From: the human T2T-CHM13v2.0 reference genome, Homo sapiens
NCBI RefSeq assembly: GCF_009914755.1
Contig: NC_060925.1
DNA: 64,000 bases
Reading direction: 5' to 3' (one strand)
The notes below the pieces were generated by a model. It did not search any database. It was not told where the DNA came from and was given only the letters and a program-made list of their open reading frames with translations. Made by a program: the position numbers and the translations under genes. Below, piece by piece: positions 27,660-46,040 of the stretch (its first letter is position 1; every line of letters begins with the position of its first letter).

Positions 27660-28300
27660 CTATGTGCCAGGCGTTCCAATGAGGTGTCCCCAACATCCAC
27701 TACTGCTGAGCACCCTCTCTCCTTGAAACGTTCCTCAGGCGGCCTCTTGACTGGGACTCCCCTGGTCTCCTTCCACCTTCGTGGCTCCTTCTCGGCTGGC
27801 AATCCCTTTTAATACGGAGGTGATGACTTTCACCCATAGGCAGGTCAACCACAAGCCCAAATCCCAGCCCTGAGCTCCAGGCGACCAATTTCTAACCCTG
27901 ACCTGGATGCTTGACAGCACCTGGGGTGGGCTGCAAGTTCAGCCAGCGACTTTCCACCTCCCTGTCTCTGATCCTGCTCTACGCCCCCAAATTTAAGAAG
28001 TCCTGATGGTTTCCTGCCCCCAAGCCTTCTGCTCATTTCCTCTGCTGTTACTCTGGTCCAGGCCTTCCCACCCCAGCTTTCCAGCTGATCTCACTCTCAC
28101 TAGTATCACCATACATATGCCTGCCCGGTAATGCTTCCTGGAGCCAATTCTTCCTGTGTTTCCCCTTCTGCAGCTCCACGGGCTTGTTCCTCCAGCCCAT
28201 GGTCAGCTGCCTCAGCCCCCACTTTCTTGCCTCCTTTCCTTTGTTCATGCTTTTCTGTCTGCCTGCAGTGCTCCACCCCAGCCCTCAGCTCCACATGTCC
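27660..28300. mobile_element. Degraded L2 LINE fragment
   Basis: The minus strand resembles L2 segments (ctggagctcagg...gtttcaaggagagagggtg). Confidence 0.55.
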
Positions 28301-28703
28301 AATGTTCAGTAGAAGCCCACCCTCAAAAGACCCTGAACTTTTTTTTTTTTTAAGGGAGATAGAAGTCTCGCTCTGTCATGAAGGCTGTGGTGCTGTGGTA
28401 CAGTCATAGCTCACTGCAGCCTCCACCCCCTGGGCTTGAGCAATCCTTCTGCCTCAGCCTCCCAAGTAGCTAGGACTACAGGTGCACACAACTATGCCCA
28501 GCTAATTTTTGTATTTTTTGTAGAAATAGGGTCTCACTGGGTGCGGTGCCTCATGCCCGTAATCCTAGCACTTTGTGAGACCAAGGCAGGCACATGGCTT
28601 GAGTCCAGGAGCTTGAGACCAGCCTGGCCAACATGGGGAAATCCTGTCTCTACAAAGAATACAAAAGTTAGCCAAGACTGGTGGTGCACACCTGTGGTCC
28701 CAG

Positions 28704-43575: not shown

Positions 43576-43949
43576 AGCTAGGCGTGGTGGTGGGCGCCTG
43601 TAATCCCAGCTACTGGGAGACTGAGGCAGAGAACCCGGGAGGCAGAGGTTGCAGTGAGCCGAGACCGCGCCACTGCACTCCAACCTGGGCGACAGAGCGA
43701 GACTCCATTTCAAAAAAAAAAAAAAAAGAATATTTAAGTCTTTTCACTTCTGGGAATACACACACACACACACATATATATTTAATCGAAACACGTTACC
43801 TTTCACTCAACAACTATTCAAGACAGAAACCATTTCGGGTAAGCAGACTCCTACAGGGTCCCTACTGCACATTTCTCATCGGTGGTCAAAGCAACAAAAC
43901 GTGAACTAAGCCACAGGGTAGCTGCAGGAAGCTCTATGCCTGGGACCAC

Positions 43950-44600
43950 TACAGGCAGGCACTAGTTTCCCTGTCCACCACTGCCCGAAATGGAGTCGGG
44001 CCCGGTTCTCCTGAGCTGAGCAGGCCAAAGCAGGGAGTCCGTGAGTGGACCGGGCATAGCCAGAGCGACGCCGCAGCACCCCAGCCGCAGGGTCAGCCCC
44101 AAAAGCAGCAGGGCCCGCTTGATCGCGGATGCCGGGACGCCCTCGTGCAAGCCTCGAAGGGGGGCTGCCACCCCGAACATTCGCCAGAACGAAAGCGGCA
44201 GCCAGGAGAAGCCCTCGCAGGTGCTGTAGGGATCCAAGCGCTTGAGCTGAGTCCGAAACTCGCACAGCAACCTCGGGAGGATAAACTCCAGCAACCAGAA
44301 TCGGGTTGGCGTCGCCTAGCAACCAGGAGCCAAATGCGCGGACGCCAGGCATTGGCCTGCACGTGTCACGTGAGCCAGCGCCGCTGCCCAGTGGGAGATT
44401 ACGCCGCAGGCACGTGATGCGGCGCAACCGCCCTTTGGCAGAGCTTTTCGCGAAGGCAGTTGTGGCTCTGAGCGCATAGGCGAGGCATTCCTGGGGTTTG
44501 CGCCGTATCCTTTTACAAAGTCCTGGCTTTGGCTGGTGCGACCAAAGAAAGGAAACCGGCGCTTGAGACTTGTCTGGGCTGGCTATGGTGAAGCAGTGAA
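43950..44600. promoter_or_regulatory. Orphan CpG-island promoter: RFX X-box GTCGCCTAGCAAC 44311-44323, ATTGG 44351, CACGTG at 44360/44367/44411, E2F-like TTTTCGCG 44445
   Basis: Non-repeat CpG-dense island with clustered canonical promoter motifs; not the promoter of AGMAT or DDI2. Confidence 0.8.
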
Positions 44601-45235
44601 ACGGTGCAGAATTGTGTCAATGAGGCTAGTTCAGTTGTGCAAGAGCATTTCCTCAAAGTAAGACAGAAGCTTTTAGTTACGTCAACACCTGCTAATGTTA
44701 GGCTGGCCAGAAATTTCCTGACAAATAATGGGTGAAGGTCGGGCGTGTGGTCGCTCATGCCTGTAATCTCAGCGCTTTGGGATCACTTGAGGTCAGGAGT
44801 TCGAGACCAGCTTGGCCAACTAGGCGAAACCCCATCTCTACTGAAAGTACAAAAATTAGCCGTGTGTGGTGGCGCGCATCTGTAATCCCAGCTACTCTGG
44901 AGGCTGAGGCAGGACAATCGCTTGAACCCAGGAGGCAGAGGTTGCAGTGAGCTGAGATCACGCCACTTAAAAGAAACGAAACTTTGCTGGTGACCATGTG
45001 GTGATGAAACTGAGCGTTTTGGAGCGCAGCAAGGTGACTCCCCATGTAATTAGTATAGACAGAGAGTTTGTGCTCTAAAGGTTAGAAATAAATGTTTTCG
45101 GCCTGGTGGCTCATGCCTGTAATCCCAGGACTTTGAAAGGCTGAGCCAGGCGGATCACCTGAGGTCAGGGTTCGAGACCAGCCTGGCCAACATGGTGAAA
45201 CCCGTCTCTATTAAAGATACAAAAATTAGCCAGGC

Positions 45236-46040
45236 GGAAGAAGTCACTTAGCTCTTCGCTGGTTGTCACACGTCCGGAGGCCGAGCCGTCGCGTACCTAG
45301 GATACCTGGAAGCCGAAGCCACACCTCCCGCATGGCCCCTCCGGCCAGCCGGGCCCCTCAGATGAGAGCTGCACCCAGGCCAGCACCAGTCGCTCAGCCA
45401 CCAGCAGCGGCACCGCCATCTACAGTTGGCTCTTCTGCTGCTGCGCCCCGGCAGCCAGGTCTGATGGCCCAGATGGCAACCACTGCAGCTGGCGTGGCTG
45501 TGGGCTCTGCTGTGGGGCACATACTGGGTCATGCCATTACTGGGGGCTTCAGTGGAGGAAGTAATGCTGAGCCTGCGAGGCCTGACATCACTTACCAGGA
45601 GCCTCAGGGAACCCAGCCGGCACAGCAGCAGCAGCCTTGCTTCTGTGAGATCAAACAGTTTCTGGAGTGTGCCGAGAACCAGGGTGACATCAAGCTCTGT
45701 GAGGGTTTCAATGAGGTGCTGAAACAGTGCCGACTTGCAAACGGATTGGCCTAATCAAGAAGTTCAACCTGGAGAGATGGAAAATCAGCTCTCATACTAA
45801 TTAATTTAGTATAAAAATAGAATTGGTAGTGAGGGTATAAAGTGTAAGCATCAGTTAAACTTCTCCTGTCATTCCTAGCTTCCTTGCTTCAGAATTGAAA
45901 TGGAAGGGAGGGTGTTCCTACTCTGTAGAATCTGGGACTGGGCAAATGTTTGTGTGGCCTCCTTAAACTAGCTGTTATGATTTTATTCTTTGTGAGTTAA
46001 TTAGAATAAAGTCATTTTCTTCCAAAAAAGAAAAAAAAAA
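45236..46040 (+). pseudogene. CHCHD2P6: Processed CHCHD2 retrocopy (probably CHCHD2P6); ATG>ATA at 45302, open frame 45332-45754 (140 aa)
   Basis: Intronless [10 protein letters not shown]...twin CX9C...RLANGLA*, with 5'UTR, AATAAA 46005-46010, poly(A) 46024-46040 and TSD (aaaaa)tagccaggc inside an Alu linker. Confidence 0.92.

What the first reader, a model, noticed from the sequence alone, without database searches (positions are those of the whole stretch)
43962..44330. Fossil coding exon in an orphan CpG island: first exon of a lost protein-coding gene?
Seen: the minus frame from 44294 reads (TTG)LEFILPRLLCEFRTQLKRLDPYSTCEGFSWLPLSFWRMFGVAAPLRGLHEGVPASAIKRALLLLGLTLRLGCCG. Over its first 81 codons I count GC1 50/81 (62%), GC2 40/81 (49%) and GC3 68/81 (84%). 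That is the periodicity of a real GC-rich coding exon, not the flat profile of a chance CpG-island ORF, and the peptide is Leu/Phe/Trp-rich rather than Arg/Pro/Gly-rich. It begins at TTG (one change from ATG) about 20 nt from an RFX X-box. It is not repeat-derived and I cannot assign it to any family. Inference: exon 1 of an ancestral gene between AGMAT and DDI2 that lost its start codon but kept its promoter.
Basis: partly seen in the sequence, partly recalled or inferred. Interest (0 to 1): 0.88.

Follow-up and report, generated by a model that had tools for sequence, protein, structure and literature searches.

The report
Coding-like relic in orphan CpG island
A 260-base stretch in an unannotated CpG island between AGMAT and DDI2 looks statistically like real protein-coding sequence, but it has no start codon, no splice site and no known relative, so it is probably the remnant of an unidentified gene.

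Summary
The minus-strand ORF 43962-44294 exists, and GC1/GC2/GC3 over its first 81 codons are 50/40/68 of 81, as stated.

The signal exceeds chance:
- It is the second-strongest 3-base periodicity peak in the 64 kb window. The other four of the top five are DDI2 exon 1, two AGMAT exons and CHCHD2P6.
- 0 of 60 non-coding CpG-island promoter regions reach its periodicity, though one comes close.
- 0 of 384 chance ORFs from those regions reach its codon-usage score.
- 0 cases with the full signature occur in 12 Mb of simulated island sequence.

The signal is a discrete block (about 44315 to 44040) just downstream of a motif cluster: GC box, three E-boxes, CCAAT and an RFX X-box.

The identity is unresolved. 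There is no paralogue in the human reference, no Pfam or PDB match, and no named protein of 48-192 aa. Longer proteins and other vertebrate genomes could not be searched. The block has no AUG at its head and no usable splice donor.

Best reading (about 0.47): a relic of a coding first exon at a still CpG-rich promoter. Rivals are chance (about 0.27) and a live unannotated small ORF (about 0.15). "Exon 1", "lost start codon" and "ancestral gene" remain untested.

The parts
44052..44315 (-). Coding-like block: 88 codons from just after the in-frame TAG to codon 81 of the ORF. GC3 is 84% over codons 1-81, with preferred-type codons. The signal fades between about 44050 and 44030.
   Evidence: Periodicity chi2 is 21.9-22.1 (243 nt). 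Codon score is +0.206 bits/codon: +0.29 for codons 1-38, +0.13 for 39-81, -0.18 for 82-110.
43962..44294 (-). The last 29 codons carry no coding signal.
44316..44318 (-). In-frame TAG that closes the frame upstream. It lies inside the X-box.
   Evidence: (open frame 117 aa)
44178..44180 (-). Codon 39, ATG. By my reading, it is the first AUG on the minus strand downstream of 44350. It is in frame (72-aa ORF), with G at -3 and T at +4.
44311..44323 (+). RFX X-box consensus match (GTCGCCTAGCAAC)
   Evidence: 1 match in the 64 kb window, 3 in 240 kb of promoter loci
44351..44355 (-). CCAAT box
44360..44416 (.). Three CACGTG E-boxes (44360-65, 44367-72 within TCACGTGA, 44411-16)
   Evidence: 3 of the window's 12 matches fall within 57 nt. 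The window total of 12 compares with 4.2 expected.
44428..44433 (-). GC box (GGGCGG)
43900..44500 (.). CpG island (GC 0.64, CpG o/e 0.76) with no RefSeq gene or functional element, lying between two Alu-type masked repeats
43794..43802 (-). The only credible minus-strand splice-donor match (AAG|GTAACG, 7.4 bits, 29th percentile of 164 true donors). It lies downstream of the ORF's stop.
43781..43786 (-). ATTAAA polyadenylation-signal match, followed on the minus strand by a (TA)n(TG)n run

Best explanation
The block 44315-44040 on the minus strand is sequence shaped by selection for protein coding. It is most likely the N-terminal coding part of a gene whose promoter is the CpG island directly upstream (GC box, E-boxes, CCAAT, X-box).

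In the human reference it is no longer a working first exon. It has no AUG at its head, its coding signal stops without a usable splice donor, and no transcript is annotated. The island probably stays unmethylated because its factor sites are still occupied, and it probably still fires as a promoter, likely in both directions. That would slow CpG decay, which may help the GC3-rich codon pattern to persist as a fossil.

Shown here: the coding-type statistics, the block's sharp limits, the motifs, the lack of AUG and donor, and the lack of any copy elsewhere in the genome.

Inferred: that a gene existed, that the block was its first exon, and that the island is active and unmethylated.
For:: second-highest 3-periodicity peak in 64 kb. 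The other four of the top five are DDI2 exon 1, AGMAT exons 4 and 1, and the CHCHD2P6 retrocopy.

0 of 60 non-coding CpG-island-like promoter regions (48,174 windows) reach chi2 21.86. Their maximum is 18.3, or 13.3 when an open frame is required. 9 of 16 regions with real coding windows reach it.

codon score +0.206 bits/codon. 0 of 384 chance ORFs of 81 codons or more reach it (maximum 0.158). 4 of 11 real coding chunks score lower. The four other ORFs overlapping the locus all score negative.

in 12 Mb simulated from non-coding island sequence there are 11 clusters at chi2 of 21.86 or more. 5 of these have an open frame and 0 have a codon score of 0.2 or more. Among 39 open frames at chi2 of 18 or more, the best codon score is 0.103.

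the signal switches on at about 44320-44295 and off at about 44050-44030, in one frame only.

in 236,052 windows free of annotated coding sequence, the only exceedance (25 windows, L029) is a period-3/6 simple repeat. The candidate has no repeat.

the plus-strand frame that shares third positions has 2 stops and a score of -0.03, so the signal belongs to the minus strand.

the motif cluster lies directly upstream.
Against: No relative was found anywhere. The six-frame and DNA searches of the reference find only the locus itself. Pfam is blank, PDB is blank, and named proteins of 60-192 aa and 48-154 aa are blank.

No splice donor lies at the end of the block. No AUG is present, and the context at TTG is poor.

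With window length optimised for the controls too, one control region (L049, upstream of TSPAN2) reaches 23.8 against 24.1. It has no coding-like open frame. Periodicity alone therefore has a false-positive rate near 1 in 60 islands.

The candidate was picked post hoc by a scan that may cover the whole genome, so a few chance cases are expected genome-wide. The codon table rests on only 4,770 codons from chromosome 1.

An unbroken frame of 88-117 codons fits poorly with an ancient loss. From recalled neutral indel and substitution rates, I infer that more than about 90 million years without constraint should have broken it. Yet I recall no gene between AGMAT and DDI2 in mouse or chicken (recalled, not tested).
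Confidence: 0.47

Rival explanations
1. Chance: an ordinary open frame in a CpG island that happens to have high GC at every third base and a codon mix resembling human genes. It was noticed only because a wide scan looks at very many islands.
For: The frame is only 117 codons, and several ORFs of 89-173 aa overlap at the same place. Given the positional base composition, the chance of no stop in 117 codons is 0.10. One of 60 control regions nearly equals the periodicity once window length is optimised. Real non-coding windows have tails 1.5-3 times heavier than theory at chi2 10-15. No homologue, AUG or donor was found.
Against: The joint signature was never seen in controls: 0 of 60 regions, 0 of 384 ORFs, and 0 in 12 Mb of simulation, where chance frames with strong periodicity reached a codon score of at most 0.103 against 0.206. 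The near-miss control has no coding-like open frame. In the window itself, every other peak of this strength is real or former coding sequence.
Confidence: 0.27
2. A live, unannotated small protein gene. A short single-exon transcript would start near the X-box and end at the ATTAAA site near 43781. It would be translated either from a near-cognate codon (ACG 44312, TTG 44294 or CTG 44291) or from the in-frame AUG at 44180 (72 aa). The product would be a Leu-rich, probably membrane-embedded peptide.
For: The frame is unbroken over the whole coding-like block and beyond. By my reading, the first AUG on the minus strand downstream of 44350 is in this frame (context). An ATTAAA followed by a TG-rich run lies 180 nt past the stop. 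T makes up 38% of second codon positions and Leu is 19 of 81 residues, as in membrane proteins.
Against: The strongest coding signal (codons 1-38, +0.29) lies upstream of the only AUG. The near-cognate codons have weak contexts. RefSeq annotates nothing here (and the annotation supplied). No named protein of 48-192 aa resembles it, so no pipeline has predicted it in any species. An out-of-frame ATG at 44352 would capture ribosomes if transcription starts further upstream.
Confidence: 0.15
3. The block is an internal exon, or a piece of a retrocopy, duplicate or mobile-element gene, rather than a first exon. Alternatively, the coding strand is the plus strand.
For: A weak acceptor-like site (first exon base 44315; 6.0 bits, 10th percentile of 68 true acceptors) coincides with the start of the signal. 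Some regions of the reference are closed, so a parent there would not be shown.
Against: Only the locus itself matches in the six-frame and DNA searches of the reference. It is not masked as a repeat. Pfam is blank. By my reading, there is no A-tail on the minus strand. Plus-strand frames have stops or negative scores. The acceptor-like site is simply the X-box read on the other strand.
Confidence: 0.06

Closest known systems
Unitary pseudogenes (relics of genes lost without a surviving paralogue; the class is recalled from the literature, and no paper on it was read here)
   Same: A coding-type sequence signature without a working ORF, single copy, no parent gene in the same genome.
   Different: A unitary pseudogene is defined by an intact orthologue in another species at the syntenic place. 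None could be looked for here, and none is recalled for the AGMAT-DDI2 interval. Only one exon-sized block is visible, and the frame itself carries no disabling stop or frameshift.
Orphan CpG-island promoters (islands away from annotated gene starts that act as promoters of unannotated, often non-coding, transcripts; recalled)
   Same: Island criteria are met. There is no RefSeq gene or element. A dense cluster of GC box, CCAAT, E-box and X-box motifs is present. Positive GC skew to the right of 44300 and plus-strand donor matches at 44587 and 44657 hint at divergent transcription.
   Different: Orphan islands are not expected to hold a codon-periodic block, and 0 of 60 control islands did. 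Activity (CAGE, methylation) was not testable here.
Non-canonical and micro-protein ORFs (near-cognate starts, Ribo-seq ORFs in unannotated transcripts; recalled)
   Same: Short ORF, no annotated gene, possible near-cognate or internal AUG start.
   Different: Most such ORFs are young and lack codon periodicity, whereas this one has it. Translation evidence is absent here.
X-box plus Y-box (RFX with NF-Y) promoter modules, as in MHC class II type promoters (recalled; a lead only)
   Same: An X-box is followed 28 nt later, on the plus strand, by an inverted CCAAT (44311-44323 and 44351-44355).
   Different: No S/W box or X2 site was tested. The orientation of such a module would point to plus-strand transcription, away from the ORF. 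Nothing links this locus to antigen presentation.

Membership tests
Working protein-coding first exon | AUG start codon in a usable context at the head of the coding frame | tested here: not met
   No AUG lies between the in-frame TAG (44316-18) and codon 39. TTG 44294 has T at -3 and C at +4.
Working protein-coding first exon | Splice donor at the end of the coding part, or a complete ORF with a terminal signal | tested here: not met
   No minus-strand donor of 4 bits or more lies within 44315-43965. The only one (7.4 bits) has its last exon base at 43800, after the stop. The coding signal ends about 29 codons before the stop.
Working protein-coding first exon | Codon periodicity and codon usage of coding sequence | tested here: met
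Working protein-coding first exon | Conservation of the frame across species; transcript and ribosome evidence | not testable with these tools
Unitary pseudogene / fossil exon | Sequence once under coding selection but now unable to make the protein | tested here: met
   The coding signature is present. AUG and donor are absent. 'Once under selection' is inferred from statistics only.
Unitary pseudogene / fossil exon | Intact orthologue in other species at the syntenic position | not testable with these tools
   Named-protein searches cover only 48-192 aa and were blank. Longer proteins and other genomes could not be searched.
Unitary pseudogene / fossil exon | No functional paralogue or parent in the same genome | tested here: met
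   Only the locus itself matches at meaningful E-values. Closed regions are a caveat.
Processed pseudogene / retrocopy | A parent gene elsewhere in the genome; a poly(A) remnant | tested here: not met
   Searches find self only. By my reading, there is no T-run on the plus strand left of 43781.
Repeat or mobile-element derived sequence | Masked as a repeat, multi-copy, or tandem structure | tested here: not met
CpG-island promoter | GC above 50%, CpG o/e above 0.6, more than 200 bp | tested here: met
   43900-44500: GC 0.64, o/e 0.76
CpG-island promoter | Transcription start sites, unmethylated state, factor occupancy | not testable with these tools
   Only motif matches are available. RefSeq lists no functional element at the locus.

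The most novel reading that the evidence does not exclude
A still-functional human protein-coding gene that every annotation has missed. It would be a compact single-exon unit driven by an RFX/NF-Y/E-box promoter between AGMAT and DDI2. It would be translated from a near-cognate start (or the in-frame AUG at 44180) into a small Leu-rich membrane protein with no known relatives. The unbroken frame would be explained by ongoing purifying selection rather than by a recent death.
Probability: 0.13. Interest if true: 0.8.

Novelty: new member of a known kind. Interest (0 to 1): 0.5.

Why it matters
If it is a real relic, it marks a gene loss, or a missed gene, in one of the best-annotated stretches of the human genome. 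It would also give a concrete case of a promoter outliving its gene, which is one proposed origin of orphan CpG islands.

It also shows that a simple joint test can single out candidates that homology-based annotation cannot see. That test combines periodicity, codon score and an open frame, measured against matched non-coding islands.

If it turns out to be chance, it calibrates how far such statistics can mislead in a genome-wide scan.

Tried and rejected
- **Copy of another human sequence:** rejected. The six-frame protein search and the 1,004-base DNA search of the reference return only the locus itself. The two other protein matches have E of 4.4 and 9.6.
- **Known protein family:** Pfam is blank for this ORF and for two overlapping ORFs at E up to 10. 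PDB sequences are blank at E up to 10.
- **Named proteins:** blank for the 110-aa ORF (2 candidates shared words and none scored; 63 unnamed-source candidates were left out). Also blank for the 88-aa block (3 unnamed-source candidates left out). These searches see only proteins of 0.55-1.75 times the query length, so a longer parent protein is not excluded.
- **Repeat-made periodicity:** rejected.
- **Known RNA family:** one sub-threshold match only (psbNH, 16.7 bits against a gathering score of 45, E 0.44). I take it for chance.
- **Plus-strand coding:** rejected.
- **Continuation of the coding signal in another frame after about 44040** (a frameshifted fossil): not seen. Scores below about 43950 are unreliable, because the background model is for GC-rich DNA.
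- **Bacterial-type promoter/terminator scan:** irrelevant to a human locus.
- **Literature:**
  - Passages mentioning lncRNAs RP3-467K16.4 and AL121992.3 of this BAC clone give no coordinates.
  - 'AGMAT, DDI2, pseudogene' returned 1 unrelated paper, seen in the listing only.
  - The phrase 'between AGMAT and DDI2' returned 0. 'Unitary pseudogene' with '1p36.21' returned 0.
  - Passages on CHCHD2P6 in 4 of 6 listed papers say nothing on this island, and one array signal maps to the parent gene's chromosome.
  - Supplements were closed. Tables of novel coding regions or unitary pseudogenes could bear on the claim.
- **Second fossil exon:** the peak at 28084-28326 (chi2 15.0) has no convincing frame and is within chance for 64 kb.

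Full report
**What is there.** The frame is open for 117 codons between an upstream TAG (44316-44318) and the terminal TAG.

The surrounding 600 bases (43900-44500) have GC 0.64 and CpG observed/expected 0.76. The unique stretch 43741-44744 lies between two masked repeats and carries no RefSeq gene or functional element. The window's only annotated elements are at the AGMAT and DDI2 promoters.

**Is the periodicity more than chance?** I scanned the whole 64 kb with a chi-square for 3-base periodicity of G+C in 243-nt windows. The five strongest peaks are:

| Peak | chi2 |
|---|---|
| DDI2 exon 1 coding part | 27.1 |
| This locus | 22.1 |
| AGMAT exon 4 | 20.3 |
| AGMAT exon 1 | 19.6 |
| CHCHD2P6 retrocopy | 16.9 |

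The next peak (28084-28326, 15.0) has no convincing frame.

For a matched control I drew 120 gene starts of chromosome 1 at random and could fetch 80 three-kb regions. Of the 80, 60 had at least 100 windows with GC of 0.58 or more, no annotated coding sequence or pseudogene, and under 20% repeat.
- None of those 60 regions (48,174 windows) reached 21.86. The maximum was 18.3, or 13.3 when an open frame in the right phase was required.
- 9 of 16 regions with real coding windows reached it.
- Over all 236,052 windows free of annotated coding sequence, the only exceedance (25 windows) is a (CTT/CTCCTT)n simple repeat in L029. The candidate has no tandem or internal repeat.

When window length (150-360) is also optimised for the controls, the candidate reaches 24.1 and one control (L049, upstream of TSPAN2) reaches 23.8, with the next at 18.9. 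That control has no open frame of 81 codons with a coding-like score. Periodicity alone is therefore matched by about 1 island in 60.

**A second, partly independent test.** I compared it with triplet frequencies in 53,725 bases of non-coding island sequence.

The candidate scores +0.206 bits per codon over its best 81 codons.
- 0 of 384 chance ORFs of 81 codons or more from the controls reach that (maximum 0.158).
- 1 of 384 reaches its whole-ORF score of 0.106.
- 4 of 11 real coding chunks score lower than the candidate.
- The four other ORFs overlapping the locus score -0.07 to -0.24.

I also simulated 12 Mb of island-like sequence with a third-order Markov model.
- 11 clusters reached chi2 21.86. 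Of these, 5 had an open frame in phase, 4 had the order GC3 > GC1 > GC2, and none had a codon score of 0.2.
- Among 39 open, strongly periodic frames (chi2 of 18 or more), the best score was 0.103.

So the codon mix adds information beyond periodicity, and the joint signature is rarer than about one per 12 Mb of island sequence under this model.

Caveats: the model is homogeneous. Real non-coding windows have tails 1.5-3 times heavier at moderate thresholds. The training set is small. The finding was selected post hoc by a scan that may span the genome, so a few chance cases genome-wide cannot be excluded.

**Anatomy.** The signal is a discrete block.
- It switches on between 44320 and 44295 and fades between 44050 and 44030, in one frame, with no continuation in another frame.
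- Codons 1-38 score +0.29, codons 39-81 score +0.13, and codons 82-110 score -0.18.
- The plus-strand frame sharing third positions has two stops and a score of -0.03, so the signal belongs to the minus strand.

Upstream on the minus strand lie, in order:
- a GC box (44428-33);
- three CACGTG E-boxes (44411, 44367 within TCACGTGA, 44360), which are 3 of the window's 12, against 4.2 expected for the whole window;
- a CCAAT box (44351-55);
- an RFX X-box (44311-23), the only match in 64 kb, with 3 matches in 240 kb of promoters.

There is no AUG at the head. TTG (44294), CTG (44291) and ACG (44312) are each one change from AUG, and any eight codons are likely to hold such a codon, so this argument is weak. 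The contexts are poor, except for G at -3 of the ACG.

By my reading, the first AUG downstream of 44350 on this strand is codon 39, in frame. An out-of-frame ATG lies at 44352.

A position matrix built from 164 annotated donors finds no donor of 4 bits or more inside the block. The only one (7.4 bits) has its last exon base at 43800, beyond the stop. An ATTAAA followed by a TA/TG run lies at 43781-86.

**Identity.** Nothing was found.
- The reference holds no other copy at protein or DNA level (closed regions are a caveat).
- Pfam and PDB are blank.
- Named proteins of 60-192 aa and 48-154 aa are blank.

Proteins longer than 192 aa, which is the expected case for a first exon, could not be searched. 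Neither could other vertebrate genomes. The literature searches gave nothing on the locus, and supplements were closed.

**Interpretation.** The most likely reading is that the block was shaped by coding selection and is now a relic at the head of a still CpG-rich promoter (confidence about 0.47).

One tension remains. From recalled neutral substitution and indel rates, I infer that an 88-117 codon frame should not stay unbroken for much more than some tens of millions of years without constraint. So either the loss is fairly recent, in which case non-primate mammals should have the gene, though I recall none between AGMAT and DDI2. Or the frame is still constrained, which is the live-gene rival (about 0.15). 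Or the whole thing is chance (about 0.27).

These are that it is exon 1, that the start codon was lost at TTG, and that an ancestral gene lay between AGMAT and DDI2. The missing donor counts mildly against 'exon 1 as it stands'.

**Novelty and score.** If real, it is a new member of a known kind: a unitary-pseudogene-like relic, or a missed small gene, at an orphan island. It is not a new kind of element. A few public-data look-ups would decide it. Interest 0.5.

Noticed in passing
window 44300-44800 (+): The island may fire rightwards too. GC skew turns positive from 44300 to 44800. The X-box then inverted-CCAAT order on the plus strand points that way. Plus-strand donor matches lie at 44587 and 44657 (5.5 and 5.9 bits). 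The CHCHD2P6 retrocopy starts about 0.8 kb downstream on the same strand (45239) and could borrow this promoter.
   Followed up: partly
window 28084-28326: This is the sixth-strongest periodicity peak of the window (chi2 15.0, GC 0.54, unmasked), upstream of AGMAT. Open frames of 73-85 codons exist on both strands but none looks protein-like. It is within what chance gives in 64 kb.
   Followed up: partly
L049:1700-2150 (upstream of the TSPAN2 start, chr1:115,101,150-115,101,600): This non-coding control region has 3-base periodicity nearly equal to the candidate's (chi2 23.8 at the best window length). It has no open frame of 81 codons, and its best codon score is 0.02. The cause is unexplained.
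   Followed up: partly
L029:744-898 (NEXN / NEXN-AS1 promoter): A (CTT)n/(CTCCTT)n simple repeat gives the highest periodicity of all non-coding windows (chi2 29.2). It shows that period-3 repeats mimic the signal.
   Followed up: yes
window 43758-43786: On the minus strand, ATTAAA is followed directly by a (TA)n(TG)n microsatellite. This arrangement resembles a poly(A) signal with a GU-rich downstream element, 180 nt past the ORF's stop.
   Followed up: no
window 45239-46025 (CHCHD2P6): One array probe signal for CHCHD2P6 in an endometrial eQTL table maps to a variant on chromosome 7 near the parent gene (passage in PMC6065421). Reported 'expression' of this pseudogene may therefore partly be cross-hybridisation.
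   Followed up: no
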